From a virus (Duplodnaviria > Heunggongvirae > Uroviricota > Caudoviricetes): a stretch of 27,627 nucleotides of DNA. Below, one piece after another: positions 2,277 through 21,026 of the stretch (positions within the stretch are counted from its first letter, which is position 1; each line of letters starts with the position of its first letter). The notes beneath the pieces are model-generated. The model made no database searches and was not told where the DNA came from. It worked only from the letters and a program-made list of their open reading frames with translations. Position numbers and translations under genes: made by a program. Location of the stretch: IMG/VR virus record IMGVR_UViG_2531839130_000010; one strand, given 5' to 3'.

Positions 2277-2325
2277 CGCATTCGTAATGCGAAGGTCGTA
2301 GGTTCGACTCCTATTATCGGCACCA
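2277..2325 (+). tRNA. 3' fragment (about 49 nt) of a tRNA-Thr(CGU) gene (thrW-like); pseudo-tRNA / att site
   Basis: Readable anticodon stem-loop cgca-TTCGTAA-tgcg (anticodon CGT), T-arm gtagg-TTCGACT-cctat, acceptor 3' strand tatcggc + A + CCA ending at 2325. No complementary 5' acceptor strand (gccgata) upstream, so it is a 3' fragment, not a complete gene. Confidence 0.7.
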
Positions 2326-2328
2326 TCA
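2302..2328 (+). repeat. attL core of the P4-like element: 27-bp direct repeat gttcgactcctattatcggcaccatca (tRNA-Thr 3' end)
   Basis: Exact 27-bp identity with 15192-15218; flanks differ on both sides. Confidence 0.8.
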
Positions 2329-5814: not shown

Positions 5815-6099
5815 ATGAATATTTCAAACGGGCACAACGGTGCTCAGGGCCACACTTTGCCTGAAAAACACAATACCGGTGTTTTTGCCTATGGGTTGTC
5901 AGAGGACAGTTTCGGAAAGCTGACCCGCGCAAGAAATGCCTGCGACATGCTCCAGCTTCTCTTTTCTGAATACCCGTCTCAGGCCGGAGCACTGGACACT
6001 GGCTGTGCGCATGGTGTCGCCGCGCTGATGGAGTACCTGCTGGCAGATTTGACGGATATTGCACACAGCTGCGCACTGATTGAAGGAGGTGCCAGATGA
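5815..6099 (+). CDS. Hypothetical protein (94 aa)
   Basis: ORF track; GGAG RBS; stop overlaps next start. Confidence 0.5.
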   Translation: MNISNGHNGAQGHTLPEKHNTGVFAYGLSEDSFGKLTRARNACDMLQLLFSEYPSQAGALDTGCAHGVAALMEYLLADLTDIAHSCALIEGGAR

Positions 6100-6479
6100 A
6101 CCAGCCGCAGGTTTCCATTTTCCCGGCAGAAATGACCACCGCGCTTTACCGGCGGGCTATTGCTTCAGCATGGCGGCAGAAAATGCTGAACGAAACTGGC
6201 AGTGATCAGTATGGTCCGCACAGCCTGACGGTGGAGCGTATTGAAATGGCCATTGCGCTGCATATCGAGTGCGTACTGATTAACGAGTACGGCGAAGCAC
6301 AGGGCGCCGCTGCCGCGCTGGCACTGCTGACTGACATGCTGGAGCCGTCACTGCTGACCGCGCCGCCGGTACTGACCGCGCGCGGCTGTGAAGTGATGGC
6401 GGAGATGTACCGCACGCTTCCGGCGGCCTTTGATGACTTCTGCAGTACCGGTGTGACGTTGTATCAGGGGGAAGTATGA
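6096..6479 (+). CDS. Hypothetical protein (127 aa)
   Basis: ORF track; AGGAGG RBS; ATGA overlaps with neighbours on both sides (operon). Confidence 0.5.
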   Translation: MNQPQVSIFPAEMTTALYRRAIASAWRQKMLNETGSDQYGPHSLTVERIEMAIALHIECVLINEYGEAQGAAAALALLTDMLEPSLLTAPPVLTARGCEVMAEMYRTLPAAFDDFCSTGVTLYQGEV

Positions 6480-9148
6480 CAATACAGACGGTTACGCAGA
6501 TTTCAGCCGCCGCACGGGGGAAATGGCCCGTTATTCTCCAGATGCTGCGTATTGATGTACCTGAAAACGGCAGGCACGGTCCCTGCCCGAAATGTGGGGG
6601 CAAGGATCGTTTTCGCCTTGATGACCTTGACGGGCGCGGGACGTGGATCTGCAGCCAGTGTGGCAATGGTGACGGTCTGGATCTGGTTAAGCTCGTAACC
6701 GGTTACAGCATCAGAAAGGCTGCGCAGGAGGTGGCGCAGGTGCTTAATGTGCCGGATGTGCAGGAACTGCCTGTTAAGCCTGCCAGACAAAAAGCCCCTA
6801 AACGCGACATGGGTCTTACCGTGGCGGCGCTGATGAAAGAGAGCCACACGGGAGAAAGCGCCTATCTGACAGGAAAAGGGTTCGCCGGATACCCGGCCTC
6901 TCTGACCGGAAGCGTGCAGCATATCAGCGGTAAGGATTTTCCTGCCGGTTCCCTGCTGTTACCACTCACGACCAACACCGGAGCCGTGACTGGTGCACAG
7001 CTTATCGCCCCGACGGGTGAAAAAAGCATACTGCCCGGCAGCACGATGAAAGGCGCGTTTGTGTCGCTCAGCCCGTTACCGTCTGAACCACCGGTACAGG
7101 TGGTGATTACCGAAGGTTACGCTACGGCGCTGACGGTAAGTCAGCTCACTGCCGGATGCGTAGTGGCTGCCATATCTGCGGGCAACCTGCCCAATGTGGC
7201 GCAGTCGCTGCGGGCACGCTGGCCTGAGGTAAAAATTATCATCGCCGGTGATAACGATTTTCAGGACGGAGGTGAGAATCCCGGCAGAGCCTTTGCTGAA
7301 CGGGCGGCAAAAGCTGTTGGCGGCTGGATGACGCTGCCACCAGGAGAGATTAAGGCTGACTGGAATGACTTTCATCGGGAGCACGGTATTACCCGTGCCC
7401 GTGAAGCCTTTCGCAACGGTCTGGTACTGTGCGGGGAAGGCCGCACGCAACTGCCGCACGGGTTCCGTCTTACCCAGGAATATCTCTGGTATGAAAAGCA
7501 GGTACAGCGCAACGGTGAGACGGAGATCCAGAACGTCAAAATATGCAGCCCGCTGCGCGTGACGGCAATCACCTGCGATGCCGATGGCGGTAACTTCGGA
7601 CGACTGCTGGAATGGGAAGATACGTGGGGTGAGTGTCGCCGCTGGGCGATGCCGATGGAAATGCTGAGCGGCAGTGGTGAGGAACTGCGCCGGGTACTGC
7701 TGGTTAACGGGCTGTCTTATATCAGCACCACCGGTGAGGCACGCGCACGCCTGATGGAATATATCTCACTGTGTAAACCGGAACGCCGCGTGACCTGCGT
7801 CAGTCGTACTGGCTGGCATGGTCAGGTTTACGTCCTGCAGGATGAGGTCAGCGGTGAAGGTGCAGAGGGTGTCATTCTCCAGACCACTTCCGTGCAGGGG
7901 CGTGATTTCCGCGTGTCGGGCACAACAGAGGAATGGCGGGAGCATGTATCCCGCTACTGTACCGGCAACTCCCGCGTGGCATTTGCTGTCAGCCTGGCCT
8001 TTGCTGCACCACTGTTACGGCTGGTTGGTATGGACGGCGGCGGCTACCACCTCAAAGGGGAATCGACAGACGGTAAGACCACCACCATGAAAGCGGCAAC
8101 CTCCGTCTGCGGCGGGCCTGACTACTGGCAGACATGGCGGGCCACCGGCAACGCGCTGGAGGGATGCGCCAGCCGCCGCAACGATGCCGCCATGATGCTT
8201 GATGAGATCCGGGAAGTTGACGGACGCGAGGCAGGCAATATCGCCTACATGCTGGCAAACGGTCAGGGCAAGGGCCGTGCCGGTACGGACGGTGAGCTGC
8301 GTACCCGTAAGCAGTGGCGCCTGTTGTTCTTTTCAACTGGCGAGTTGTCTCTGACCGAACATGCGGCAAAGGCCGGTGAGCGTACTTTTGCCGGGATGGA
8401 AGTCAGGATGATCCAGATCCCCAGCGATTCCGGGAAGTTTGGCGTTTTTGAGGAGCTGCACGGCTTCGACAGCGGCAAGGCTCTGGCAGAGCATCTTGAA
8501 TGGGCCACGTCCTGCTACTACGGTTCGCCGTTCCGGGAGTGGCTGAAAGCACTGACCGCTGATCTTAACGGACTAACGGCACAGGCAAAATCGCTGATGA
8601 AGGAATATGCTGCCGCCCTGACTCCGAAAGATGCAGGCAATCAGGTGGGCCGGGCTGTGAACCGCTTTGCTCTGGTGGCGATGGCAGGTGAACTGGCAAC
8701 CCGTCTGGGTATCACCGGCTGGCCTGAGGGTGAAGCACTGCGGGCAACCCGCGTCTGCCTGAACGCATGGCTGAAAGATCGCGGGCACACCGCCAATCAG
8801 GAAGATATCGCCGCACTGGAGCAGGTTCGCAGTTTCTTCACCGCGAATCAGTACAGCCGCTTTGCAGACTGGTATGACGAGCGCAACCGCCCCGGCAATA
8901 TGGTGGGCTGGCGCAGGGTGGAGAAAGGCAGTACCGCGCAGGGCACGGAAGCTGTCACTACGTTCTATGTCATGCCGTCCGGCTGGAAAGAAATCTGCAG
9001 GGGATTTGACCCGCGCAAGGTGGCGCGTCTGTGCGCAGATCGTGGATACCTGCTGCCCTCCACTGATGGCAAACTCCAGACAACCATTCGCCCGCCAGAG
9101 ATGAATCCCCGCAGGCTCTATGTCTTCAACAGCGAGGTGCCGGGTTAA
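6476..9148 (+). CDS. P4 alpha-type primase-helicase (890 aa)
   Basis: N-terminal zinc-binding CPKCGGKD...CSQCG; Toprim-like VVITEGYATA ... IIIAGDNDFQDGGENPG; C-terminal helicase Walker A GESTDGKTT and Walker B-like MMLDEIRE. Confidence 0.9.
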   Translation: MTIQTVTQISAAARGKWPVILQMLRIDVPENGRHGPCPKCGGKDRFRLDDLDGRGTWICSQCGNGDGLDLVKLVTGYSIRKAAQEVAQVLNVPDVQELPVKPARQKAPKRDMGLTVAALMKESHTGESAYLTGKGFAGYPASLTGSVQHISGKDFPAGSLLLPLTTNTGAVTGAQLIAPTGEKSILPGSTMKGAFVSLSPLPSEPPVQVVITEGYATALTVSQLTAGCVVAAISAGNLPNVAQSLRARWPEVKIIIAGDNDFQDGGENPGRAFAERAAKAVGGWMTLPPGEIKADWNDFHREHGITRAREAFRNGLVLCGEGRTQLPHGFRLTQEYLWYEKQVQRNGETEIQNVKICSPLRVTAITCDADGGNFGRLLEWEDTWGECRRWAMPMEMLSGSGEELRRVLLVNGLSYISTTGEARARLMEYISLCKPERRVTCVSRTGWHGQVYVLQDEVSGEGAEGVILQTTSVQGRDFRVSGTTEEWREHVSRYCTGNSRVAFAVSLAFAAPLLRLVGMDGGGYHLKGESTDGKTTTMKAATSVCGGPDYWQTWRATGNALEGCASRRNDAAMMLDEIREVDGREAGNIAYMLANGQGKGRAGTDGELRTRKQWRLLFFSTGELSLTEHAAKAGERTFAGMEVRMIQIPSDSGKFGVFEELHGFDSGKALAEHLEWATSCYYGSPFREWLKALTADLNGLTAQAKSLMKEYAAALTPKDAGNQVGRAVNRFALVAMAGELATRLGITGWPEGEALRATRVCLNAWLKDRGHTANQEDIAALEQVRSFFTANQYSRFADWYDERNRPGNMVGWRRVEKGSTAQGTEAVTTFYVMPSGWKEICRGFDPRKVARLCADRGYLLPSTDGKLQTTIRPPEMNPRRLYVFNSEVPG

Positions 9149-9182
9149 GGCTTTGCGTGAGTCTTATTTATTAAGGGTAACA

Positions 9183-9370
9183 GGTGAAACAGGTGGAACA
9201 ACCGTATTTTACAGGGCTGAACCTGTTCCACCTTCTGAAATAGTGAGGTGGAACAGATGTAACGCCAGCCAATCCGCTGTTCCACCTTGTTACCCGCGAT
9301 GTTCCACCGGTGCAGTGTATATAAATGTCTTATAAAACAAAGCTGTAACACATGTTTCACCTGTTCCACC
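9183..9370. repeat. Iteron cluster: 8 copies of TGTT(C/T)CACC in both orientations (candidate crr/ori-type replication element)
   Basis: Copies at 9183-9191(-), 9192-9200(-), 9224-9232(+), 9247-9255(-), 9278-9286(+), 9300-9308(+), 9353-9361(+), 9362-9370(+), immediately downstream of the primase gene. Confidence 0.6.
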
Positions 9371-9458
9371 GCATCAGGGACATAAAGCAGACTGAAACAG
9401 AGGGCATTTTTATCTGGCTGGCTTTCATAGCCACGTCTGAATAACCGCAAGCGCCCGT

Positions 9459-9514
9459 TGTGCCAGCCACCACACACTGAACACCGATAGTGTGCTTGTG
9501 TCAGCCACGACACA
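9459..9514 (+). promoter_or_regulatory. Two TGT-N12-ACA dyads (Ogr/Delta-type activator boxes) upstream of the sid-like gene; candidate late promoter
   Basis: TGTgccagccaccacACA at 9459-9476 and TGTgtcagccacgacACA at 9497-9514, sharing a cagccac core; the sid-like ATG is at 9549. Confidence 0.4.
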
Positions 9515-9548
9515 ATTGACGTAACGAACCAACCCGACAGGAGAAGTC

Positions 9549-10292
9549 ATGAACAATACCGCAGTAAATAACAACCTTTCCACTTTTCCGGCTGTAACGC
9601 AGCGGGCACTGGAAACCATGAACACAGCCAGAAACGCATGGCTTGAAGCACGTCGTCAGCAGAAAGCGGCAGCGGATAATATTGCGACAATCCGCCAGCG
9701 TCGCGCTGAAATGGAAGCCACGACGAACACACTGAATGAGGAGTGGCGCACGCTGTTTCGTGAAAGTCAGGGCGTGGTCTCAAAGGAAATGAAAAAACTG
9801 CGCACGGAAATTGCGCTGGGACGAGAAACGCTTGAGGATTTTGATGAGCTGCTGGCGGCTCAGGAAAGCGAAAATGCACTTTTGCCGCAGAAAGCTGCAG
9901 AATTAGCCGGAAAGTATATCCACGCGCATAACATTCTTGTGGATATTCGCGCAAAACAAATCTGGGAGGATTTTATGCAGTCGCATGGAAAAGCGCTTAT
10001 TCAGACGCTGAGCCTGCTTAAATCCACAATGGGCCGGGAAGCCAGTGCCGTTGTGGGTGTGGTGAATTCAGTTAATGACCCGGACACAGTGCTGAAAGAC
10101 TTTATTCATAAACATATCACCAGACCGGCTCTGGCTAACGATGCGATGCCTGAGCAGGACCCGGTGTTTAAACTGGCGGGAGTTGCCCCGGATTATGCGG
10201 CGCGTCTGGATTTCAGTAATCAACTCTCTCCGGCAGCTATGCATAAAATTAAGGTTCGTCAGGAACTTGCTGAGAAGGAGAAAGCAGTATGA
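9549..10292 (+). CDS. Sid-like (capsid size determination) protein candidate, 247 aa
   Basis: Position after primase/iterons and before psu-like and delta genes; size close to P4 Sid; helical, charged sequence; AGGAGA RBS. No motif-level proof. Confidence 0.4.
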   Translation: MNNTAVNNNLSTFPAVTQRALETMNTARNAWLEARRQQKAAADNIATIRQRRAEMEATTNTLNEEWRTLFRESQGVVSKEMKKLRTEIALGRETLEDFDELLAAQESENALLPQKAAELAGKYIHAHNILVDIRAKQIWEDFMQSHGKALIQTLSLLKSTMGREASAVVGVVNSVNDPDTVLKDFIHKHITRPALANDAMPEQDPVFKLAGVAPDYAARLDFSNQLSPAAMHKIKVRQELAEKEKAV

Positions 10293-10840
10293 CGGCCCGA
10301 GGCACGCCTGACCAGGCACTTACCAGTTTTCGGAATGCCCGCATTCTGTGGGCCGGACATAATGAGAGCCGAAAAGCCGTTGAACAACAGATAACATCTC
10401 TCCTCGCTGCCACAGAAAAACCAGCAGATTATGCCCGACAGCTCGAATTACTGCGGGAACGTCTGGATGTGCTGAAATGGCAAATTAACTGTGCTGCGCG
10501 CGAATGCATTTACTCGCAGCATTTACTGATGGAGGCCTGCACAGAAGCCGCTCTCAGCAATTTTATGCAGGCGAATGGGGCAGCCCTGACATCTGCACTG
10601 GCTCCGTTCCTGAAGGGGCGCGGAGGGGTTGACGTTGCGTCCCGTATATTACGCAGTGCTCTGGTTCGCCAGCTGGCAATAACACCGCCTGAAATTGCTG
10701 GGGATTATCGTGAGATCCTGGATGAATCCGGTTTGATGCCTGACCCCGGGATGATTCGTGATTGCCAGGGTTCTTACACCCCGGCACAACATCTGCGTTT
10801 TCAGCAACGCCTGAATGACATTAACGATATACAGGAGTGA
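10289..10840 (+). CDS. Psu-like (polarity suppression) protein candidate, 183 aa
   Basis: Size and position next to the Ogr/Delta gene as in P4-like elements; AGGAGA RBS; start overlaps upstream stop. Assignment by synteny only. Confidence 0.4.
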   Translation: MTARGTPDQALTSFRNARILWAGHNESRKAVEQQITSLLAATEKPADYARQLELLRERLDVLKWQINCAARECIYSQHLLMEACTEAALSNFMQANGAALTSALAPFLKGRGGVDVASRILRSALVRQLAITPPEIAGDYREILDESGLMPDPGMIRDCQGSYTPAQHLRFQQRLNDINDIQE

Positions 10841-10845
10841 TATTA

Positions 10846-11118
10846 ATGGCACTTAAATGTCCGGAATGCGGTACAGTTGCACACGCCAGAACAGCAGCCT
10901 ATGAAGCTCCGTCAGTTAAACGCTCGTGGTATCAGTGCCAGAATCTGGAATGTTCCTGCACATTTACGGCACTGGAGAGTGTGGATAAGATAATCATGAA
11001 ACCCCGGCGCAATGAACAGGAACCAGACAAATCACAACCCCCGGTAAAACAACAGCAAACGCTCAATCGCTATGGCTCCGCGTCAAAACTGTCAAGCCGT
11101 CAGCAGATTCCTGTCTGA
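10846..11118 (+). CDS. Ogr/Delta-family zinc-finger late-gene transcriptional activator (90 aa from ATG 10846)
   Basis: MALKCPECGTVAHARTAAYEAPSVKRSWYQCQNLECSCTF has the C-x2-C ... C-x4-C spacing and HART motif of P2 Ogr / P4 Delta; AGGAG RBS 8 nt upstream. Track start 10837 is a GTG. Confidence 0.8.
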   Translation: MALKCPECGTVAHARTAAYEAPSVKRSWYQCQNLECSCTFTALESVDKIIMKPRRNEQEPDKSQPPVKQQQTLNRYGSASKLSSRQQIPV

Positions 11119-11141
11119 TTAGAAAAAAACGCCCACGTAAT

Positions 11142-11165
11142 CCCGGTCGAGTACCGGGATTTTTA
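11142..11165 (+). terminator. Rho-independent terminator after the delta gene
   Basis: Hairpin cccggt-cgagt-accggg followed by aTTTTT. Confidence 0.6.
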
Positions 11166-11512
11166 ACACCTTTTCCCTGGCTGGCCTGAGAGCGTATGAG
11201 TGCATGTCTATGGCGCATGAAAATGCATGAGTCTTATGCACCCTTTTTGAGGCGAAAACCTTTGTGTGGTGGTATCTGAGACGATTTATGGCATGCATGA
11301 AAACCAGTCTGTTAAGCGAAGCGGGCAGGCGTGCGGGGCTGCCCGCGTAAGGGCGTTGAATGGTATAACTATGGCACGGTTACCGCATGTTTTGAGCTGT
11401 AATCGAAGTTATGAAAATTACTATATAAAGCGGTCGCTGTTGTGGAGATACGATTGCGGGAAGTGATGGAAAGAGCTATAAAAAGTACAGAGGATAGTTT
11501 AATGAGGGTATT

Positions 11513-12790
11513 ATGAACCGTCAGCCGTTTACTTCAGCAGCACTTAAACGAAACTTAAGTGAAAGTGAGAAGGCTTATTATTTTAAAAAAAATAATGTTG
11601 CTGAGTTAGAATCATTAATTAGTGATGCCGTTTTAATTGCTAATGAGAATTTTCGCTCTGGTGTGAGTGTAAAGAAACTAAATATTAAGGGACGCTGCGT
11701 TTACACTGCTTCATGTTTGAAGGAAAAAATAATACTTAGACATTGCAATGCAAATTTAAAATGCCTTGAATCGCTTCGTCCCAAACAACGAAATACAATA
11801 ATTAGTGAGCTTAAAATTTATTTGGAAGAAGGTACTCCATTCAAAATATATCGTTTGGATATAAAGTCTTTCTTTGAATCAATTGATTTACCGCAGCTTT
11901 TTCAGCTCTTACATAACGAAACACGACTGTCTAGACATACAAAAAATTTGCTAGAATGGTATCTTAAATCGTGTGAAAGGCTTCACTCTTCGAAAGGATT
12001 ACCTAGAGGGTTAGAAATTAGTCCTATGTTATCAGAATTGTACTTGGCACAATTTGATAATAGTATTCATAGGCATCCAGAAGTATTTTATTATTCAAGA
12101 TTTGTAGATGATATGGTAATCGTTTCAAGTGGTTGTGAATGTGAAGCGTCCTTTATGGAATTTATACAAGATGTATTACCAAAGGGATTGGCTTTAAATA
12201 AAAATAAATTAAAAATATCTCCATGCATACCAAAGAGAAGTAAGGGTTTAAATAAACAGGATAAATTGCTTCATGAATTTGACTTTCTAGGGTACTCGTT
12301 TTCTATAATAGACACACCTTTGAGCAAAGATGGTGAGATTAATAGCTGTTACAGAAAGGTTGTTGTTAATTTATCTAAATCTCGCCTGAAGAAAATTAAA
12401 ACAAGAATAGCTAGGTCTTTCTACTCTTATCATATTAATGGTGATTTTAAACTATTGCTAGACAGGATTTCTTTTTTGACTAGTAACAGGGATTTAAATC
12501 GCAAAATAAAATCGTTAAGTTCTTTAGAAAAAAGCAAGATAAGTACAGGTATTTATTACAGTAATGCGAAGTTAGATGTTGACTCCATATCCCTAAAAAA
12601 ATTAGATGACTTTTTGCTATATTGTGTGCAATCTAATACTGGGCGTTTGAATAGTGTTGCAAAAAAACCTTTTAATTTGAAGCAAAAAAAAGAACTGCTA
12701 AGAAATAGTTTTAGAAAAGGCTTTGTGGATAGAGTATATAGAAAGTATAACTTTAAGCGCTATACTGAGATTACAAAAATATGGTTATAA
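11513..12790 (+). CDS. Reverse transcriptase, 425 aa (UG3-like; first gene of a DRT type 3-like pair)
   Basis: RT motifs read directly: YRLDIKSFFESI (motif 1/2), GLPRGLEISPMLSELYL (motif 4), RFVDDMVIV (catalytic motif 5), FLGYSF (motif 7). Strongly AT-rich versus the P4 backbone; stop overlaps next gene start. Confidence 0.8.
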   Translation: MNRQPFTSAALKRNLSESEKAYYFKKNNVAELESLISDAVLIANENFRSGVSVKKLNIKGRCVYTASCLKEKIILRHCNANLKCLESLRPKQRNTIISELKIYLEEGTPFKIYRLDIKSFFESIDLPQLFQLLHNETRLSRHTKNLLEWYLKSCERLHSSKGLPRGLEISPMLSELYLAQFDNSIHRHPEVFYYSRFVDDMVIVSSGCECEASFMEFIQDVLPKGLALNKNKLKISPCIPKRSKGLNKQDKLLHEFDFLGYSFSIIDTPLSKDGEINSCYRKVVVNLSKSRLKKIKTRIARSFYSYHINGDFKLLLDRISFLTSNRDLNRKIKSLSSLEKSKISTGIYYSNAKLDVDSISLKKLDDFLLYCVQSNTGRLNSVAKKPFNLKQKKELLRNSFRKGFVDRVYRKYNFKRYTEITKIWL

Positions 12791-14799
12791 AGAAAAACAT
12801 TAAACTTGATAAGAAAGATTATCTCAGGGCTTTACTATGTGATACACTGCCCGGTGATTGTCCAATTATTTTTTCAAATGATGGCTTATATATAAACTTA
12901 ACAGAATATGATAGAGTTTGTAATGATTTGTTACATTTTACTCCGGTTTCTTCTTTCTTAAAAAAAATAGTTAACCCTAATTTAGACTCTTCTATTAGTG
13001 TCGCAGATCGCCACCGAGAAAAGAAGAAACAAAGCTCCCCATTTGGCTATTGTATAGTAAAAGATGCCTTTAGCCAAAGACATCTTTCTTTAATTCACCC
13101 AAGATCTCAAATTAATTATTCGGAATTTTATAAAACATACTCATCCGTTATCACATTAAATACTTTAAAAAGTAATTTTTCTATTCGCTACCCACGTAAG
13201 GTCGCTAACTCTTTCTTTTTATATGAAAATAATGCTTTGGAAAAATATAAAGGGGAAGATATCGAAACAACAAAGGATGAGTTAATGAGGAAATATTCAT
13301 CCTCTTATTTTAGTTATGGCGGTTTCAACAGGATATATAAACTATTTCAAAGTAAGATGTTTATTGAGCTTGAGAAAAGATTCTCGGTGATGTGGATGTT
13401 AGATGTATCACATTGTTTTGATAGCATATATACGCATTCGGTTTCTTGGGCATTAAAAAATAAATCATATATAAAAAAACATGTTAAACACAGCAATCAA
13501 TTTGGACAAGAATTAGATACACTGATGCAACGTAGCAATAATAATGAAACAAATGGAATACCTATTGGTTCAGAGTTTAGCAGGGTTTTTGCAGAATTAA
13601 TATTTCAGCGAATTGATTGCAATATTGAGTCATGCCTTCTTAGTGAACATGGATGGGTTAATAATAAAGATTATGTTATATTGAGATATGTAGATGATTT
13701 TATTGTTTTTTGTAATGGTGAGTCAAGTGCCGAAGTTATTACAAAAATAATTAATGTGAAGTTAAATGAATATAATCTACAATTAAATGTAAACAAGCTT
13801 AAGAAGTATTCTAGGCCATTTTGCACTAGCAAGACAAGTTTGATTGTCAAAGTTAATGAATTAATTCGCAATTTAGAAATTAAACTGTATGAAAAACGTG
13901 ATAGTGGCTTTACTTTAAATAAAATAAGAAGTAAGCATGATTTAAAGATATATGTAATTAATCATGTCAAGTCTATATGCATTGAAAATCAAGTGTCTTA
14001 TTCTGATGTTTCATCATATATAATATCATCTCTTTCCAAAAGATTAATATCAATAATTGATATATTACGAGTTCAAGAAAATGAAGATGATGTAGATGTA
14101 AAAAAAAGGATTAAGGACTTAATTTTCACAATAACCGATATTATGTTGTTCTTTTTCAGTGTTAACCCAACTGTTTCATCATCTTATAAATTATCAAAGA
14201 CAATGGTTGTTGTTAATAACTATTTGAATGAAATATCTAGTGACTATAGTAGTATTTTTATGACTACGTTAGTGAATGCTGCGGAAAACATTAATTTTGG
14301 TGAGAATGATAATGGGCTGTTTATTGATGATTTCATTTCAATTGAAAAGGTTAATTTAATCTTGGCTGCTACTTTTTTTGGAGATAATTATCTTATAAGT
14401 GACAGTTTTTTTCATGGAGTTATACATAAAAAGAAATTGGACTACTTTACTATAATCTCACTGCTATTCTATTTTAGAAACAGAAGATCATTCCGAAAAT
14501 TGAAGTGTATAATAGAGGGTGAAATAAAGGAAATATTAAGTTCTAATATGGATTTGCTGCAATCATCGGAAAAGGCACATTTATTTTTGGATGTCATGTC
14601 ATGTCCATTTGTCTCAATAGAGACAAGGCGTTTTTTATATAGAAAATATCTCAAGAGCTATGAGCCAAAGCTGAACAGAAGTCATCTGGAGATTGAGAAT
14701 GATTTGCAATCTCTGCTTCAAACATATTGGTTTGTCAAGTGGGATGAGTTAGATATTGTGAAAATGATTGAGAAAAAAGAATTGAAAGAAAGCTATTAA
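12781..14799 (+). CDS. Reverse transcriptase, 672 aa (UG8-like; second gene of a DRT type 3-like pair)
   Basis: RT motifs: MLDVSHCFDSI (motif 2), GIPIGSEFSRVFAELIF (motif 4), RYVDDFIVF (catalytic motif 5), LQLNVNKLKKY (motif 6); long N- and C-terminal extensions; 10-bp overlap with the upstream RT gene. Confidence 0.8.
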   Translation: MVIKKNIKLDKKDYLRALLCDTLPGDCPIIFSNDGLYINLTEYDRVCNDLLHFTPVSSFLKKIVNPNLDSSISVADRHREKKKQSSPFGYCIVKDAFSQRHLSLIHPRSQINYSEFYKTYSSVITLNTLKSNFSIRYPRKVANSFFLYENNALEKYKGEDIETTKDELMRKYSSSYFSYGGFNRIYKLFQSKMFIELEKRFSVMWMLDVSHCFDSIYTHSVSWALKNKSYIKKHVKHSNQFGQELDTLMQRSNNNETNGIPIGSEFSRVFAELIFQRIDCNIESCLLSEHGWVNNKDYVILRYVDDFIVFCNGESSAEVITKIINVKLNEYNLQLNVNKLKKYSRPFCTSKTSLIVKVNELIRNLEIKLYEKRDSGFTLNKIRSKHDLKIYVINHVKSICIENQVSYSDVSSYIISSLSKRLISIIDILRVQENEDDVDVKKRIKDLIFTITDIMLFFFSVNPTVSSSYKLSKTMVVVNNYLNEISSDYSSIFMTTLVNAAENINFGENDNGLFIDDFISIEKVNLILAATFFGDNYLISDSFFHGVIHKKKLDYFTIISLLFYFRNRRSFRKLKCIIEGEIKEILSSNMDLLQSSEKAHLFLDVMSCPFVSIETRRFLYRKYLKSYEPKLNRSHLEIENDLQSLLQTYWFVKWDELDIVKMIEKKELKESY

Positions 14800-14972
14800 T
14801 TTGATAAATATGAGTCGTGGTCAGTTTCAAAATACTTACGTCATCGTCGTCGGTGTATTTTATATCGATTATGAAGACGATTTCGCTGGAACTGAAATCG
14901 GCTTGAATGCTTAAACTTAAGCTAAAAAAACAGTTTGAGACCAAAGCCTAAATTATTAGGCTTTGGATTTTC
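14800..14972 (+). ncRNA. Candidate structured non-coding RNA downstream of the RT pair, ending in a terminator hairpin
   Basis: No credible ORF; local self-complementarity (atcgtcgtc ... gaagacgat); ends with hairpin ccaaagcct-aaattatt-aggctttgg plus ATTTT at 14941-14971. Purely a candidate. Confidence 0.2.
14941..14971 (+). terminator. Rho-independent terminator downstream of the RT operon
   Basis: Perfect 9-bp stem ccaaagcct/aggctttgg, 8-nt loop, followed by aTTTT. Confidence 0.55.
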
Positions 14973-15191
14973 AGGTTCAGTTGAGAGTAATTGCTGTCTG
15001 TTTATTGCTTAACCAATACAGTTAGTGGTGCTTACACACCTGATGTTGAGAAACTGACCACACCAATACAACCTTTTGTTTGTCTTCAACTGTGTAGACT
15101 ACTAAACACGAATCAGCAGTTAGGGGCATGTATGGGGGCATTGGTTTTAATTTTTTATAAAATATCAATTTTTTCATATTGTTAAGTTATT

Positions 15192-15218
15192 GTTCGACTC
15201 CTATTATCGGCACCATCA
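15192..15218 (+). repeat. attR core of the P4-like element: second copy of the 27-bp tRNA-Thr 3'-end repeat
   Basis: Exact copy of 2302-2328; no tRNA body upstream of it. Confidence 0.8.
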
Positions 15219-15821
15219 AGAAAATCAATAACTTAGCTTAACTTCTCTAAGAAATTGTATCTTCTGTTATCACTTACAAACGCCTATACGTTGTTATGGG
15301 CTTTGGTAGTGTAACACGTATGGGCGAGTAGTTCCCAGGCTCAACCTCGTAACAAGTTCCTTTGAAGCTGGAAGACGTGCCACCGTCTCTAAACCTTCTA
15401 CCAAAACTCTTAGCAAGATGTTCCACACCTGGCGCGGTGTCCAATGATGCTACACGTCGTGAGACGTTGCAGAGGATAAACAGGCTAAATGATGGGAAGA
15501 GTTTTAAGTGCAATAGTGGATTAAAGCCCACCTCTTCAAAACCTAACTTGATCGGGAAAGAATCAAGCTCTAGCACGGTTTCGTCCACCGGAGTACAACG
15601 GGTGCCTGATAAGAGAAGAACTGCTAAGACTTCATAGCTTTTGTGAAAAAGCCCTTTTTAGTGGATACGCCTACGGCGCTTATTTTTTGGTATAACCATC
15701 AAAGGCGCTTTATGGCTCCTATTGTCTTGAAAATGTATCTTTACTTGTATTGTGTTTTATGCGTAGCCTTCCTGTGTAGTATGTAACTTGTTCATTTTCA
15801 TATGAATACAGAGGCAACACG

Positions 15822-15974
15822 ATGAAAAACATTGCAGCTATCAAACGTAATAACCGCAAGATTCACGCTCGTAAGTTCCTGTCTACGCCAGAAGGAAAAG
15901 CCTGGCTAGAGCGTAAACAGCGAGAGAACGAAGAAAGAAAACTCCTTAGTGAGTTGAAATGGCTTAAGGATTGA
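15822..15974 (+). CDS. Small basic hypothetical protein (50 aa; below ORF-track cutoff)
   Basis: Manual translation MKNIAAIKRNNRKIHARKFLSTPEGKAWLERKQRENEERKLLSELKWLKD; GAGG-like RBS about 9 nt upstream. Confidence 0.3.
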   Translation: MKNIAAIKRNNRKIHARKFLSTPEGKAWLERKQRENEERKLLSELKWLKD

Positions 15975-16539
15975 ACCACCAGTAGGCGCATAACACATCC
16001 AGCGATCAAAGATGTGTTTATGCACCTGATAGTGAAATTATTAAAGTCGTTTAGTTAACATCGCCATTGCTTGAGCAATAATTGCAACAGCGTCCATCTC
16101 TTCACTGGAAGCGATGCAAATGCGGTAACTAATAGCCACAACGAATACATCAATAACGAGAAAGTGAATAGTGTGAAGATGTTTTGAAAGTAAATGCATA
16201 ACTTCCTCCGGTTTTACGATAGGAAGATTAGAACATGCATTAAATGATGTTACAAGGGTGGTAATTTACCCTAATAGTCTACTATTCACCTCAATCTACG
16301 TCAACCAATATTTGATGTAGATTTAATTTTCTTTTAAAAACAATATGTTGCAATTTGTTGAATTTTGGGGTTAGGTTGTTTTTTGAACGTTTTCATCAAG
16401 TGTAAAGATACGTTTAGCCTTCATAGTGAGTTCAGTTACTGTCTTTTTCTCTGAAATCGGCGCAGACGTGATCAATGTTTAACGCGAAGATCAGCGGCGT
16501 CAGGTCCACGCAGCGACAATTCTCAAATATCAGGAGGCA

Positions 16540-17097
16540 TTACGCTTCCTGCTCTTTCTTGATACGTTGCACCGTCTGTGTGCTGACACTGAAATCTTTT
16601 GCTACGCTCCGAATTGATCCACCATTCGCGAGAGCGGCAACAATTCCCGCTCGATCAATTGCTTTTCCATTACCACGTTTTGCTATACGTCCAGCGGCCT
16701 TAGCTGCGGCGATCCCCTCACGCTGCCGCTCAAGCATCATTTCACGTTCCATTTGTGCCACTGCTGCAAGCACTGTGAGCATCATATTCCCTGCGGGAGA
16801 GTTCTTCCCTGTCTTAAAGTCTTCTTTATGGAAATGCACAGACACGCCGCGCTCTGTTAATTGCTCAACCGTTGCCAGAAGGTCGGCTGTATTACGACAA
16901 AGGCGATCAATACTATGGACGTGTAACACGTCACCCTCCCGCACATAGTTCATCATTGCCTCAAACTGTGGGCGCTGAGTGTTCTTGCCTGACGCTTTAT
17001 CTTCAAAGACTTTATCAAGAGTTACTCCAGCTAATTGACGGTCTGTGTTTTGTTGCACAGTCGATACCCTAATGTATCCAATATTAGCCATTTTCAT
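16540..17097 (-). CDS. Serine recombinase (resolvase / DNA invertase family), 185 aa
   Basis: N-terminal catalytic signature IGYIRVSTVQQNTDRQ (active-site Ser), resolvase core, C-terminal HTH GGSIRSVAKDFSVSTQTVQRIKK; AAGGA RBS. Confidence 0.85.
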   Translation of the reverse strand: MKMANIGYIRVSTVQQNTDRQLAGVTLDKVFEDKASGKNTQRPQFEAMMNYVREGDVLHVHSIDRLCRNTADLLATVEQLTERGVSVHFHKEDFKTGKNSPAGNMMLTVLAAVAQMEREMMLERQREGIAAAKAAGRIAKRGNGKAIDRAGIVAALANGGSIRSVAKDFSVSTQTVQRIKKEQEA

Positions 17098-17655
17098 TTT
17101 CCTTCTGTGTTGATTTGTGTGTAGTGATTATTGATCGTGTTGATTAGGTGTGTAAAGGACTTTTTTCACTACGAAATTCGAAGGTTTTTAGTGTGGTGAT
17201 TTAGCCTGCTTTATCACTACACGTCTTGCATGAGAATCATGTAGTTACATTTTGGTAAAATTAGCAAGCTATTAAATAGTGTGTTTATTTTGAAAAAATA
17301 ATTTTTTGTTGCATTAAAGGAAACTTGTTCGACAAATAATAGATTGATTTTTAATCAACAATTTCTGATAGTGCTCTGTAAGCCGTATTACACAAGGCTT
17401 TGCGAAAGTGATGTAAAAGTGAAGAAAGCTAACATTGCACTTTTTAAGCTACTTTTCATTGGATTTTTACGTAGGAATTACACAGGGATTAATCATCAAT
17501 TACATTGAATTTAAGCCTGTTTTAGATGTTTAATTTTGGTAGCAAGAAACACTTTTAGAAGATCATTGCACAGATGCTATGTGATGATTGGATGTAACGG
17601 TAGGTCACTGTGAGCTACCCCTATCAAGTCTGATACCCGATAAGTATAAATAACA

Positions 17656-17756
17656 CCTGGGAAATGAGTTCCGATCTATTTAGGAAATAACCGTGGAAGT
17701 GGTTTCCTACCTACCTAGGAAATGAGTTCCTATCACCTAGGAAATGATTTCCGACA
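17656..17756. repeat. Cluster of near-palindromic direct repeats CCT(A/G)GGAAATGA(G/T)TTCC (3 copies) plus a related dyad; candidate protein-binding sites
   Basis: Copies at 17656-17674, 17714-17734, 17736-17756; dyad taggaaa-N15-tttccta at 17681-17709. Core GGAAAT-N-ATTTCC is palindromic. Confidence 0.5.
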
Positions 17757-18147
17757 ATACTATAATTAAACTACAATTAAACTATATAATATAATTCTTT
17801 TTTATCTTTATAAGAATAATTATAGGGATACCCGTTAGGGAGTCTAACGACTATCCCTTAATCTATTGGCATTCGCCAGAACCTTGCACAAGTTAGAGTG
17901 TTAGTCGTTAGACTGCTTGTCATAACACATAGTTTTTGTTTGTTGATGTTAGTTAGTAGATCTATGTTCGCTAATGCCGCTCACAACGAATATGTAATCT
18001 ACTATGTGCAAATAGCCTACGGCTTGCGTAAGGCTAAATAGTCTTGCGCTGTGCGCTTCAATAGTTCCATTGATGAGGCTTATGATCTTACCCAGCAATA
18101 GTGGACACGCGGCTAAGTGAGTAAACTCTCAGTCAGAGGTGACTCAC

Positions 18148-18447
18148 ATGACAAAAACAGTATCAACCAGTAAAAAACCCCGTAAACAGCATTCGCCTGA
18201 ATTTCGCAGTGAAGCCCTGAAGCTTGCTGAACGCATCGGTGTTACTGCCGCAGCCCGTGAACTCAGCCTGTATGAATCACAACTCTACAACTGGCGCAGT
18301 AAACAGCAAAATCAGCAGACGTCTTCTGAACGTGAACTGGAGATGTCTACCGAGATTGCACGTCTCAAACGCCAGCTGGCAGAACGGGATGAAGAGCTGG
18401 CTATCCTCCAAAAGGCCGCGACATACTTCGCGAAGCGCCTGAAATGA
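18148..18447 (+). CDS. insE: IS3 transposase OrfA (HTH DNA-binding subunit)
   Basis: [28 protein letters not shown]... recognised as IS3 OrfA; ATG at 18148 with GAGGTG RBS (track start 18139 is a GTG). Confidence 0.9.
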
Positions 18448-19310
18448 AGTATGTCTTTATTGAAAAACATCAGGCTGAGTTCAGCATCAAAGCAATGTGC
18501 CGCGTGCTCCGGGTGGCCCGCAGCGGCTGGTATACGTGGTGTCAGCGGCGGACAAGGATAAGCACGCGTCAGCAGTTCCGCCAACACTGCGACAGCGTTG
18601 TCCTCGCGGCTTTTACCCGGTCAAAACAGCGTTACGGTGCCCCACGCCTGACGGATGAACTGCGTGCTCAGGGTTACCCCTTTAACGTAAAAACCGTGGC
18701 GGCAAGCCTGCGCCGTCAGGGACTGAGGGCAAAGGCCTCCCGGAAGTTCAGCCCGGTCAGCTACCGCGCACACGGCCTGCCTGTGTCAGAAAATCTGTTG
18801 GAGCAGGATTTTTACGCCAGTGGCCCGAACCAGAAGTGGGCAGGAGACATCACGTACTTACGTACAGATGAAGGCTGGCTGTATCTGGCAGTGGTCATTG
18901 ACCTGTGGTCACGTGCCGTTATTGGCTGGTCAATGTCGCCACGCATGACGGCGCAACTGGCCTGCGATGCCCTGCAGATGGCGCTGTGGCGGCGTAAGAG
19001 GCCCCGGAACGTTATCGTTCACACGGACCGTGGAGGCCAGTACTGTTCAGCAGATTATCAGGCGCAACTGAAGCGGCATAATCTGCGTGGAAGTATGAGC
19101 GCAAAAGGTTGCTGCTACGATAATGCCTGCGTGGAAAGCTTCTTTCATTCGCTGAAAGTGGAATGTATCCATGGAGAACACTTTATCAGCCGGGAAATAA
19201 TGCGGGCAACGGTGTTTAATTATATCGAATGTGATTACAATCGGTGGCGGCGGCACAGTTGGTGTGGCGGCCTCAGTCCGGAACAATTTGAAAACAAGAA
19301 CCTCGCTTAG
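18444..19310 (+). CDS. insF: IS3 transposase OrfB (DDE catalytic subunit)
   Basis: 288-aa IS3 OrfB with integrase-core DDE region (WAGDITYL ... HTDRGGQY ... [11 protein letters not shown]); overlaps OrfA as in IS3. Confidence 0.9.
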
Positions 19311-19875
19311 GCCTGTGTCCATATTACGTGGGTAGGATCATTACGCCAATCTAACGATCATCAATCTATTTAAGAGAAAATCTATTGTGCAATACTCTGA
19401 CGAGTGCAATAACCTTGTGTGCTACGCGTTAGCGATGTTAGCACATAGACACAGACAACAACCAACAACAAACAAAAAAGAAAGAATGGTTTTAGTAGTT
19501 GAAGGTTAAATAAGTTTCTACCGCTTAAATCAAGCCGTAGGCGAGCTAAACGTATATAAGGCAGGGAAACCTTAGCGGTAATAGATTAGCTCATTATAGA
19601 GCTTCTGAGGAGCTTTACAGGTATTTTATAAGGTGTCTGAAATTAGAGTTTATCTATCATCTCCTTTTCATATACCTAACAAATACAAAATAAGCCCCTT
19701 AAATAAACCTCTGGCGAGCTAAACTGTCATTACATAAGGGAATGTATTGTTTTTATCAAAACCTCGTTAGAACGCGTTTTAGAGAATAAGGAAGAATAGC
19801 ATCACACAGAAGAGCACGAATTGCTAAGCAAAATCATAACATACTGAAAAATGATCAATATTTTATGGGCGGGGG

Positions 19876-19904
19876 TTGACAAAAGCCTTTAGTTATGGTA
19901 AAGT
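19876..19904 (+). promoter_or_regulatory. Candidate sigma70 promoter with extended -10 (TTGACA-N17-TAAAGT, TG at -15/-14)
   Basis: TTGACA 19876-19881, 17-bp spacer, TGgTAAAGT 19896-19904; about 120 bp upstream of the first small gene. Confidence 0.4.
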
Positions 19905-20027
19905 AATATTAGGGACAGGAAAACATTCCTATCCTCTAAATAATTAAACCAATGCACCGCACTTTGAAGCCCAAGAGGCTTGCAAGGTGTCTTTTTCTTC
20001 TAACCAAATAGAATAGGAGGTTAATTA

Positions 20028-20210
20028 GTGAAGTATTTCACTTCTCAAGATGTAGTTGAAGCCTGGAAACGTGGTGAGATCAACCGCTTTAGGGTAAGAA
20101 TGAATAGGAACACAGCGCGACGCTGTGGTTATCCAGAGCGTGAAAAATGTTTTGACGATGCACTAAAAATTATTGATGAACTGCGTAAGGCAGGAGCAGA
20201 GAAAGAATAA
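20028..20210 (+). CDS. Small hypothetical protein (60 aa)
   Basis: ORF track; GTG start preceded by a strong AGGAGG RBS. Confidence 0.45.
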   Translation: MKYFTSQDVVEAWKRGEINRFRVRMNRNTARRCGYPEREKCFDDALKIIDELRKAGAEKE

Positions 20211-20233
20211 TAACAGGAGAAGGAGAAAACCAA

Positions 20234-20422
20234 ATGAATATTAATTTTGATTCTGCAACTTATAACGCGTTGTTAAATCGTGCAAAGGCAGAAGGGAAAT
20301 CAATTCCAAAACTTGTTAATGAATTACTAATTACAGTCCTTACAAAGGAGGAACTAAATGATCAAAAATATCAAAACAATTGCCGAAGCGAAAGCCAAAT
20401 GTCTAAATCAGAAAGATGGTAA
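20234..20422 (+). CDS. Small hypothetical protein (62 aa), possible RHH/CopG-like fold
   Basis: ORF track; GGAGAAGGAG RBS; 3' end overlaps next gene by about 65 nt, so true extent is uncertain. Confidence 0.35.
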   Translation: MNINFDSATYNALLNRAKAEGKSIPKLVNELLITVLTKEELNDQKYQNNCRSESQMSKSERW

Positions 20423-21026
20423 ACAAAAATATGTAGTCGTTGAGCAGTGGTTGAAGATGTTTAAAAAGTGGTTCTCACCGTCAGGTAATGAATACACCGC
20501 TACACTGCCAGCCGTTGAAATCTATAGCTATATAGCTGGATTCAATGAACAAGGGCAAGAATGTTACGCCACTCAAAAAACATTATCTAATATTGGAATG
20601 GTTAGTGATCGCCAGGTTCGCAATATTATAAATATGTTTGTTGATATGGGAGTTCTTTCTGTAGAGGCTCGGGACGGGCAAACATCACTCTATAAAGCAT
20701 TACCATTCACAGATGCACATATTACTCCCCCTGGAGAGTCATCACTACCTGATCCTTCTGAGAAAGAAGACGAATCTAATGAAATATTGAATGTTTCCGA
20801 AATCATCGTTGAAGAAGAAACACAAGAGCCAGAGTTCCCTGAGCGGCCCGAAATTTTTACTTGGCTTCTTTCCCTTGATAAGAAGAAACCACCGCACGAA
20901 GAAACAGAAGATTTTGTAAAACGAGCATTAGATTCAAAGAATATCTATCTTTGTGAAAATGATTTTGACTCTTTGATAATTGATCTCAAAAGTGAGAGCA
21001 CAATATATGATTCACTACCCTTCTAA
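20358..21026 (+). CDS. Hypothetical protein (222 aa) with winged-HTH-like N-terminal region and acidic C-terminus
   Basis: AAGGAGG RBS; segment ATQKTLSNIGMVSDRQVRNIINMFVDMGVLSVEARDGQTSLY resembles a wHTH; acidic EEETQEPEFPERPE stretch. Confidence 0.5.
   Translation: MIKNIKTIAEAKAKCLNQKDGKQKYVVVEQWLKMFKKWFSPSGNEYTATLPAVEIYSYIAGFNEQGQECYATQKTLSNIGMVSDRQVRNIINMFVDMGVLSVEARDGQTSLYKALPFTDAHITPPGESSLPDPSEKEDESNEILNVSEIIVEEETQEPEFPERPEIFTWLLSLDKKKPPHEETEDFVKRALDSKNIYLCENDFDSLIIDLKSESTIYDSLPF

What the first reader, a model, noticed from the sequence alone, without database searches (positions are those of the whole stretch)
11513..14799. Tandem, overlapping reverse-transcriptase pair (DRT type 3-like) in the P4 satellite hotspot
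Two co-directional ORFs (425 aa and 672 aa) overlap by 10 bp, and both carry readable RT palm motifs with intact catalytic xVDD boxes (RFVDD near 12101-12112; RYVDD near 13687-13698). Neither has the maturase/endonuclease domains of group II intron RTs, and no retron-like msr/msd inverted repeats are evident. A short UG3-like RT followed by a long UG8-like RT is the architecture described for defence-associated RT type 3, a described family, so the novelty would lie in this variant and locus rather than a new system type. The cassette is visibly far more AT-rich than the P4-like backbone and sits between the delta gene and attR, where P4-like satellites are known to carry swappable anti-phage cargo.
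Basis: partly seen in the sequence, partly recalled or inferred. Interest (0 to 1): 0.85.

Follow-up and report, generated by a model that had tools for sequence, protein, structure and literature searches.

The report
Known DRT3 defence system on P4 satellite

Summary
Two co-directional RT genes (11513-12790 and 12781-14799) overlap by 10 nt. Their FVDD and YVDD boxes lie exactly where stated. The AT-rich cassette sits between delta and attR of a 12.9-kb P4-like element.

Both proteins match the curated Drt3a and Drt3b models over their full length, far above cutoff, and match the solved DRT3 complex 9z6y.

A roughly 245-nt structured ncRNA lies at 14817-15061, outside the stated coordinates. 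It carries the conserved ACACAC template at 15034-15039. A covariance model trained only on distant loci finds it, and covariation supports its structure.

Drt3b keeps the published functional residues: R100, D208, F213, R268, YVDD and the C-terminal priming Tyr672. It has Asp26 in place of the Glu22 dATP gate, a known natural variant.

Nothing here is new. The identical locus is in 22 of 5426 complete E. coli genomes, annotated drt3a/drt3b. The same Drt3b accession is listed among P4 hotspot loci in Rousset et al. 2022. Mestre et al. 2022 reported DRT3 in P4 variable regions. The mechanism, poly(GT)/poly(AC) dsDNA kept in check by RecBCD, was published in 2026. The remaining points of interest are the roughly 35% identity to the characterised systems and an enlarged ncRNA.

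The parts
2302..2328 (+). attL of the P4-like element. It is one copy of the 27-nt direct repeat and matches the 3' end of a tRNA-Thr-like gene. Only the 3' half of the tRNA (about 2277-2325) is present.
   Evidence: Perfect direct repeat. 0 chance matches in 100 shuffles. Sequence read. ARAGORN finds no intact tRNA.
10837..11118 (+). Ogr/Delta-like zinc-finger gene (delta), the last backbone gene before the cargo.
   Evidence: ORF. RefSeq annotation of the 100%-identical locus.
11368..11512 (+). Cargo-specific leader upstream of drt3a. It should hold the promoter, which was not identified. A GAGGG Shine-Dalgarno sequence lies 6 nt before the ATG.
   Evidence: Backbone homology shared by about 850 E. 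coli genomes ends at about 11340-11367. Sequence read. No consensus promoter was reported here.
11513..12790 (+). drt3a (UG3, class 2 RT, 425 aa). This is the RNA-templated enzyme.
   Evidence: PADLOC Drt3a 6e-131. NCBIfam NF041747 361.6 bits against cutoff 200. PDB 9z6y_A E 4.9e-56 over residues 13-424.
12101..12112 (+). Drt3a catalytic FVDD box (aa 197-200).
   Evidence: RFVDD is found in 15 of 18 Drt3a orthologues examined and RYVDD in the other 3.
12781..14799 (+). drt3b (UG8, class 1 RT with a C-terminal repeat domain, 672 aa). This is the protein-primed, protein-templated enzyme.
   Evidence: PADLOC Drt3b 8e-204. NCBIfam NF041748 614.7 bits against cutoff 350. PDB 9z6y_H E 3.4e-113 over residues 3-672.
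12856..12858 (+). Asp26 codon of Drt3b, at the position of EcoDRT3b Glu22 (the dATP gate).
   Evidence: Alignment to 26cz_A: 'LPYEVP' against 'LPGDCP'. D26 is invariant in the 21 homologues of A1.
13582..13584 (+). Arg268 codon of Drt3b, at the position of EcoDRT3b Arg241 (the dCTP specificity switch).
   Evidence: It lies 35 residues upstream of YVDD, as in EcoDRT3b. It is invariant in A1.
13687..13698 (+). Drt3b catalytic YVDD box (aa 303-306).
   Evidence: Invariant in A1.
14794..14796 (+). Tyr672 codon, the last residue of Drt3b. It corresponds to the priming Tyr666 of EcoDRT3b.
   Evidence: Invariant C-terminal Tyr in 21 homologues. Its role is described.
14817..15061 (+). DRT3 ncRNA, about 245 nt: closing helix P1, internal stem-loops, the template, and a conserved 3' block.
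   Evidence: Covariance model R1 was trained on 11 distant loci with the window excluded. It gives one full-length hit at 14817-15061, 21.5 bits, E about 0.005. In the subfamily alignment A4, 94.1% of cells are paired against 34-42% in slid controls, 19 pairs show compensatory changes, and 0 of 500 shuffles reach the observed values. Fold z-score -5.1.
14817..14828 (+). P1 5' strand, GUGGUCAGUUUC. It pairs with 15050-15061, GAAACUGACCAC.
   Evidence: In A2, all 12 P1 pairs and 11 of them compensatory.
14985..15033 (+). Stem-loop directly 5' of the template (stem 14985-14989 with 15029-15033).
   Evidence: Helix 6. Coordinates. It corresponds in position to the 'stem-loop 4 adjacent to the template' of Wang et al..
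15034..15039 (+). ACACAC template for poly(dTdG) synthesis by Drt3a.
   Evidence: The block CACACACCUGAUGYUGAG is conserved downstream of drt3b in 17 of 18 loci from several phyla. Its function in EcoDRT3 is described.
15040..15050 (+). Conserved CUGAUGUUGAG block between the template and the P1 3' strand.
   Evidence: Invariant in A4. Nearly invariant in A2.
15192..15218 (+). attR of the P4-like element, the second copy of the 27-nt repeat.
   Evidence: Homology to other DRT3-carrying E. coli genomes stops at about 15216-15219.

Best explanation
This is a complete three-part DRT3 (defence-associated reverse transcriptase type 3) anti-phage system: drt3a, drt3b and a downstream ncRNA. It is carried as cargo in the variable hotspot of a 12.9-kb P4-like satellite integrated at a tRNA-Thr-type att site in E. 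coli.

The mechanism below is inferred from published work on EcoDRT3. Drt3a binds the ncRNA and repeatedly copies its ACACAC loop (15034-15039) into poly(dTdG). Drt3b needs no nucleic-acid template. It primes on its own C-terminal Tyr672 and adds alternating dC and dA, guided by active-site residues (Asp26 at the Glu22 position, Arg268 at the Arg241 position, and Arg100). The two strands anneal into poly(GT/AC) dsDNA. Host RecBCD normally degrades this DNA. When a phage inhibits RecBCD (for example lambda Gam), the DNA accumulates and causes growth arrest or abortive infection.

Shown here: family membership, gene architecture, all catalytic, gating and priming residues, the ncRNA with its template and conserved fold, and the P4 hotspot location. 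Inferred: the DNA products, the trigger and the defence phenotype for this particular variant.
For: Full-length hits to the curated Drt3a and Drt3b models, far above cutoff. Full-length hits to the solved DRT3 complex 9z6y and to 26cz. Invariant D26, R100, D208, F213, R268, YVDD and Y672 in 21 homologues, mapped to the EcoDRT3b functional residues. The ACACAC block lies downstream of drt3b in the window and in 17 of 18 distant loci. The independent covariance model finds 14817-15061. Covariation supports six helices. The 10-nt drt3a/drt3b overlap recurs in 10 of 18 loci. The identical locus is annotated drt3a/drt3b in 22 complete E. coli genomes. P4 context: integrase, TOPRIM/DUF927 primase, Psu-family genes, Ogr/Delta and att repeats. 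The mechanism comes from Wang et al. 2026 and from Deng et al. 2026 as summarised.
Against: No experiment exists for this variant. It is only about 35% (Drt3a) and 36% (Drt3b) identical to the solved 9z6y pair, and it scores lower still against the EcoDRT3b chain 26cz. The dATP gate is Asp rather than Glu, and in EcoDRT3b the E22D mutant kept only partial poly(dCdA) synthesis. The ncRNA is about 70-100 nt longer than in distant relatives, and the covariance-model score for the window is modest (21.5 bits). No promoter was identified.
Confidence: 0.9

Rival explanations
1. The locus is a DRT3 relative whose chemistry or regulation differs from the characterised systems. Examples would be a different product balance, length or trigger, caused by the Asp26 gate, the enlarged ncRNA and the low identity to EcoDRT3.
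For: About 35-36% identity to 9z6y. Asp at the Glu22 position is invariant across this clade. The ncRNA is about 245 nt against 145-190 nt, with extra hairpins such as 14941-14967.
Against: The template is the same ACACAC and the flanking block is the same. R100, R268, YVDD and the priming Tyr are all conserved. Wang et al. report that Asp at this position occurs in a substantial fraction of homologues and still yields poly(dCdA).
Confidence: 0.08
2. One or both RTs belong to another retroelement (retron, group II intron or DGR), and the pairing of the two genes is coincidental.
For: Both proteins give weak hits to the generic RT core of group II intron and retron models.
Against: Those hits are far below cutoff: TIGR04416 scores 71.7 and 43.3 bits against 300, and retron_St85 scores 50.7 against 235. 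Rfam finds no group II intron or any other RNA family in the window. There is no long TR/VR-type repeat pair. The drt3a-drt3b-ncRNA order recurs across phyla.
Confidence: 0.01
3. The cassette is a decayed, non-functional remnant.
For: The satellite's integrase is annotated as frameshifted in one carrier strain. The element sits among IS elements and other islands.
Against: Both ORFs are intact and 100% identical across many strains. The Drt3b cluster has 213 member sequences, and 22 complete genomes carry the locus. All functional residues and the ncRNA helices are preserved.
Confidence: 0.03

Closest known systems
DRT3 / DRT type 3 (UG3 + UG8 + ncRNA): Gao et al. 2020; Mestre et al. 2022; Wang et al. 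2026 (EcoDRT3, PDB 26cz); Deng et al. 2026 (PDB 9z6y/9z6z)
   Same: The gene order is drt3a, drt3b, ncRNA. There are full-length matches to both curated models. Both xVDD boxes are present. Drt3b has the C-terminal priming Tyr, the Arg241-equivalent and the Arg71-equivalent. The ncRNA has the ACACAC template next to a stem-loop and is enclosed by a long-range helix.
   Different: Identity to the solved 9z6y proteins is only about 35-36%. Asp replaces Glu at the dATP gate, which is a known natural variant. The ncRNA is about 70-100 nt longer, with extra internal hairpins. No experimental data exist for this variant.
P4-like satellite psu-int defence hotspot (Rousset et al. 2022)
   Same: The cargo sits after the psu and delta genes and before the att site and integrase of the circular map. 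The conserved backbone ends at about 11340-11367. The same Drt3b accession (WP_001748231) and delta accession (WP_001185342) are listed in their Table S1A.
   Different: Nothing substantive. [quoted passage not shown] The canonical P2/P4 19-nt cos sequence was not found here with 5 or fewer mismatches.
DRT10 (UG17) and DRT9: class 2 UG RTs with an ncRNA that make tandem-repeat or homopolymer DNA
   Same: Drt3a's second-best PADLOC hit is RT_UG17 (1.8e-29). These systems share the logic of a short RNA template copied repeatedly.
   Different: DRT10 and DRT9 have a single RT (plus a SLATT effector in DRT10). They have no second protein-templated RT and use different template motifs.
AbiK / DRT4 (class 1 UG RTs)
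   Same: Drt3b shares the RT plus helical-repeat architecture and the protein-primed, template-independent synthesis. PADLOC gives Drt4 at 1.6e-35 and AbiK at 2.7e-24.
   Different: These are single-gene systems that make random or non-alternating DNA. Their scores are far below the Drt3b model (8e-204).

Membership tests
DRT3 | A Drt3a (UG3, class 2) reverse transcriptase | tested here: met
   NCBIfam equivalog NF041747 scores 361.6 bits against cutoff 200, covering residues 1-424. PADLOC 6e-131. PDB 9z6y_A 4.9e-56.
DRT3 | A Drt3b (UG8, class 1) reverse transcriptase with a C-terminal helical-repeat domain | tested here: met
   NF041748 scores 614.7 bits against cutoff 350, covering residues 16-672. 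PADLOC 8e-204. PDB 9z6y_H 3.4e-113 over residues 3-672, including the C-terminal domain.
DRT3 | drt3a immediately upstream of drt3b on the same strand | tested here: met
   The genes overlap by 10 nt. The same arrangement is seen in related loci.
DRT3 | Intact catalytic xVDD in both RTs (both are required for defence in EcoDRT3) | tested here: met
   FVDD at aa 197-200 and YVDD at aa 303-306. RFVDD is the majority form among Drt3a orthologues, in 15 of 18.
DRT3 | A structured ncRNA downstream of drt3b with an exposed ACACAC template | tested here: met
   ACACAC at 15034-15039 within the conserved block. The covariance model from distant loci hits 14817-15061. There is no Rfam family to compare with.
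DRT3 | Drt3b C-terminal priming tyrosine (EcoDRT3b Y666) | tested here: met
   Y672 is the last residue and is invariant in 21 homologues.
DRT3 | Drt3b nucleotide-gating residues (EcoDRT3b E22, R71, R241) | tested here: met
   R100 corresponds to R71 and R268 to R241, and both are invariant. The E22 position holds Asp26, a conservative natural variant that is partly active as E22D in EcoDRT3b.
DRT3 | Synthesis of poly(dTdG)/poly(dCdA) dsDNA and protection against phage | not testable with these tools
   This needs cDIP-seq or biochemistry and plaque assays.
P4-like satellite | Backbone genes: integrase, alpha-type primase, sid/psu and delta | tested here: met
   RefSeq annotation of the identical locus. 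Pfam Psu at 1e-44 for 10289-10837 and 1.8e-9 for 9549-10289.
P4-like satellite | Flanking att direct repeats at a tRNA gene 3' end | tested here: met
   Perfect 27-nt repeat at 2302-2328 and 15192-15218. The intact tRNA itself is not in the window.
P4-like satellite | P2-type cos site | tested here: not met
   No match to GGCGAGGCGGGGAAAGCAC with 5 or fewer mismatches on either strand. This was tested only with that recalled 19-mer, so it is weak negative evidence.
Retron | A retron-clade RT plus msr/msd RNA with flanking inverted repeats | tested here: not met
   retron_St85_RT scores 50.7 bits against cutoff 235. No Rfam RNA family hit.
Group II intron | An RT-maturase within a ribozyme intron | tested here: not met
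   TIGR04416 scores 71.7 and 43.3 bits against cutoff 300. Pfam finds only RVT_1. No Rfam intron hit.
Diversity-generating retroelement | An RT with a TR/VR near-repeat pair | tested here: not met
   No long direct repeat pair in 1-16500 other than the att sites.

The most novel reading that the evidence does not exclude
This P4-borne DRT3 clade has three distinguishing features: Asp at the dATP gate, about 35% identity to the characterised systems, and an ncRNA enlarged by extra hairpins. It might differ functionally from EcoDRT3, for instance in product ratio or length, in assembly, or in which phage triggers it senses. It might be tuned so that the satellite's P2-type helper is spared.
Probability: 0.08. 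Interest if true: 0.35.

Novelty: already known. Interest (0 to 1): 0.12.

Why it matters
It matters little beyond correct annotation. The useful output is a complete map of a natural DRT3 variant, including the ncRNA (14817-15061), which RefSeq does not annotate and for which Rfam has no family. It also confirms that the residues shown to direct protein-templated DNA synthesis in EcoDRT3b are conserved in a clade only about 35% identical to it. That makes this variant a reasonable comparison system for testing how general the mechanism is and how well the Glu-to-Asp gate variant works.

Tried and rejected
- Rfam at gathering threshold over the whole window, and at E<=1 over 14700-15300, gave no hits. 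No DRT3 ncRNA family exists there.
- I first guessed that the ncRNA started after the terminator-like hairpin at 14941-14967. I dropped this once the P1 closing helix (14817-14828 with 15050-15061) appeared in all loci. That hairpin is internal to the RNA.
- A plain MAFFT alignment of 150 nt either side of the template aligned only the template block. I had to anchor the units on P1 instead.
- The promoter and terminator scan gave no more sites than shuffled sequence, and no promoter in the 11368-11512 leader.
- ARAGORN found no tRNA. attL is preceded by only the 3' half of a tRNA.
- A search for the P2/P4 cos 19-mer with 5 or fewer mismatches found nothing.
- Retron, group II intron and DGR readings were rejected on curated cutoffs and the absence of the matching RNA or repeat features.
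- I did not run structure prediction. Full-length sequence matches to the solved DRT3 structures made it unnecessary.
Full report
**Observation**

The two ORFs are exactly as described: 11513-12790 (425 aa) and 12781-14799 (672 aa), both on the + strand, overlapping by 10 nt. The catalytic boxes sit at the stated coordinates, FVDD at 12101-12112 and YVDD at 13687-13698. Pfam sees only RVT_1 in each protein. GC falls to 0.27-0.34 across the cassette, against 0.48-0.61 in the adjacent backbone.

**Identity of the proteins**

- PADLOC scores Drt3a at 6e-131 and Drt3b at 8e-204, both over the full length.
- The NCBIfam equivalog models score Drt3a at 361.6 bits (cutoff 200) and Drt3b at 614.7 bits (cutoff 350).
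- Group II intron and retron models score far below their cutoffs.
- Against solved structures, the best hits are the two chains of the DRT3 complex 9z6y/9z6z: Drt3b at E 3.4e-113 over residues 3-672, and Drt3a at E 4.9e-56 over residues 13-424. The next hit is 26cz, a SUMO-tagged DRT3b.
- BLASTP identity to the 9z6y proteins is only about 35% for Drt3a and 36% for Drt3b. This is a divergent but clear member of the family.

**Functional residues**

Wang et al. 2026 (PMC13174585) reported the following for EcoDRT3.
- Drt3a copies an ACACAC loop of a downstream ncRNA into poly(dTdG).
- Drt3b primes on its own Tyr666 and makes poly(dCdA) without a nucleic-acid template.
- Drt3b uses Glu22 and Arg241 as gates, with a contribution from Arg71.

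Deng et al. 2026, as summarised in PMC13314766, reached the same conclusion from a 6:6:6 cryo-EM complex.

In an alignment of the window protein with 20 homologues at 90% to 41% identity, the following are invariant: D21, D26, R100, D208, F213, R268, Y303-V-D-D306 and the terminal Y672. Aligning the N-terminus to 26cz, which carries a 108-residue tag, gives these correspondences:

| EcoDRT3b | Window Drt3b |
|---|---|
| E22 | D26 |
| R71 | R100 |
| R241 | R268 (35 residues before YVDD in both) |
| Y666 | Y672 |

Every published functional position is conserved. The one change is Asp for Glu at the dATP gate. Wang et al. describe this as common among homologues and partly active when made as E22D.

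In Drt3a, RFVDD rather than RYVDD is the majority form, found in 15 of 18 loci.

DRT3 needs an ncRNA encoded downstream of drt3b.

The 420 nt after the stop codon fold much better than shuffled sequence (z = -5.1). ACACAC occurs once, at 15034-15039.

I collected loci through a Drt3b alignment (21 loci from genome contigs) and through exact-protein look-ups. The block CACACACCUGAUGYUGAG lies 134-237 nt downstream of drt3b in 17 of 18 loci. These include Pseudomonas, Halomonas, Vibrio, Caballeronia, an alphaproteobacterial MAG and a Planctomycetota MAG.

In every locus, a segment just after the stop codon pairs with the segment just after UGAG, and the paired sequences differ between loci. On 11 distant loci, RNAalifold recovers this 12-bp helix, and 11 of its pairs keep pairing through changes on both sides.

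A covariance model built from those 11 loci alone, with the window excluded, gives one hit in the window. The hit is full length, at 14817-15061 on the + strand, 21.5 bits, E about 0.005 over 182 kb searched on both strands.

A second alignment holds the window and nine relatives whose Drt3b is 90% to 51% identical. It supports six helices with 39 pairs.
- 94.1% of cells are paired, against 34-42% when the partners are slid.
- 19 pairs show compensatory change.
- 0 of 500 shuffles reach the observed values on four of the five measures (15 of 500 on the fifth, further pair types).

In window coordinates:

| Element | Coordinates |
|---|---|
| P1 | 14817-14828 with 15050-15061 |
| P2 | 14839-14842 with 14876-14879 |
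| P3 | 14883-14889 with 14977-14984 |
| P3a | 14900-14902 with 14909-14911 |
| P3b | 14917-14924 with 14931-14938 |
| Stem next to the template | 14985-14989 with 15029-15033 |
| Template | 15034-15039 |
| Conserved CUGAUGUUGAG | 15040-15050 |

The window's subfamily ncRNA is about 245 nt, against 145-190 nt in distant relatives. The extra length comes from added internal hairpins, such as 14941-14967. That hairpin looks like a terminator but is internal to the RNA. Rfam has no family for this RNA.

**Context**

A perfect 27-nt direct repeat, GTTCGACTCCTATTATCGGCACCATCA, lies at 2302-2328 and 15192-15218. It looks like the 3' end of a tRNA-Thr gene, which I recognise from memory. The two copies bound a 12.9-kb element.

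RefSeq annotation of the identical DNA gives this gene order: integrase, HTH regulator, Icd-like protein, TOPRIM/DUF927 primase, two Psu-family proteins, Ogr/Delta, drt3a, drt3b (Pfam Psu).

Backbone homology shared with about 850 E. coli genomes ends at about 11340-11367. Homology to other DRT3 carriers ends at about 15216-15219. The swappable cargo is therefore about 11368-15191, between the conserved post-delta region and attR. On the circular map this corresponds to the psu-int hotspot of Rousset et al. 2022.

Relatives at 80-53% Drt3b identity also sit after psu/delta or alpha/delta in P4-like elements in other Enterobacteriaceae. The Yersinia and metagenomic relatives sit in other contexts.

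**Novelty**

There is none of substance.
- The locus occurs at 99.8-100% identity among the listed genomes, covering at least 80% of the query in 22 of 5426 complete E. coli genomes. PGAP already labels it drt3a/drt3b.
- The Drt3b sequence cluster has 213 members.
- Rousset et al. [quoted passage not shown] These are the delta and Drt3b accessions of this locus.
- Mestre et al. 2022 state that UG3+UG8 (DRT type 3) occurs in the P2/P4 variable regions. They also describe the CACACA motif in the RNA downstream of UG8.
- The mechanism was published in 2026.

**Mechanism for this locus**

This part is inferred by homology. Drt3a with the ncRNA makes poly(dTdG) from the ACACAC loop. Drt3b makes Tyr672-primed poly(dCdA). 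The strands anneal to dsDNA, which RecBCD keeps low. Phage inhibitors of RecBCD, such as lambda Gam, let it accumulate and trigger abortive infection.

What remains open is whether the Asp26 gate, the enlarged ncRNA and the sequence divergence change the output or the trigger. I consider that unlikely (about 8%).

**Verdict**

The system is already known and interest is low.

Noticed in passing
window 23533-26764 (+): Three consecutive ORFs (127, 343 and 472 aa) lie in an AT-rich island beyond attR. None has a Pfam or PADLOC hit. RefSeq calls the homologues hypothetical, and the last one is truncated by IS3 in strain GPEC60-12-649. This could be an uncharacterised cargo module.
   Followed up: partly
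window 218-2325: A second tyrosine integrase lies at 1118-2218 on the - strand (Pfam Phage_integrase 1.6e-26). Next to it is a 296-aa ORF with no hits. Both sit directly left of a 3'-half tRNA fragment (about 2277-2325) that forms attL of the P4-like element. This suggests tandem islands stacked at one tRNA site. No intact tRNA is in the window.
   Followed up: partly
window 2421-3680: The P4-like element's integrase is annotated as frameshifted in GPEC60-12-649 but intact in QDFD216. In the window the ORF is listed as 419 aa starting from a TTG. The satellite may no longer be able to excise in some carrier strains.
   Followed up: no
window 15123-15139: The motif GGGGCATGTATGGGGGC lies about 60 nt past the ncRNA. 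It is shared with the equivalent position in L024 and L026, and part of 15123-15220 matches another E. coli genome at 77.5% (H38). It may be an att-proximal arm of the satellite rather than part of DRT3.
   Followed up: no
window 11125-11165: A GC-rich hairpin, CCCGGT-CGAGT-ACCGGG, followed by ATTTTT lies just after delta. It reads as an intrinsic terminator, though the scan did not list it. If it works as one, the DRT3 operon needs its own promoter in 11368-11512, and none was identified.
   Followed up: no
window 11100-11370: The canonical P2/P4 19-nt cos sequence, recalled from memory, is absent from the window with 5 or fewer mismatches. The post-delta region is nonetheless conserved in about 850 E. 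coli genomes. The packaging site of this satellite lineage was not identified.
   Followed up: partly
L026/L027 (Yersinia enterocolitica), 27-1109 (-): A 78%-identical DRT3 sits next to a Cap4-nuclease-domain gene and near TraD and shufflon genes, not in a P4-like element. The same DRT3 clade therefore moves between different kinds of mobile element.
   Followed up: no
window 15219-23500 compared with NZ_CM160084.1: Downstream of attR, the ORF coordinates are offset by about 4.1 kb relative to the 100%-matching strain GPEC60-12-649. Other DRT3 carriers have entirely different DNA after attR (pao/ecp genes). The region right of the satellite is highly mosaic, with IS1, IS3 and a recombinase.
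   Followed up: no
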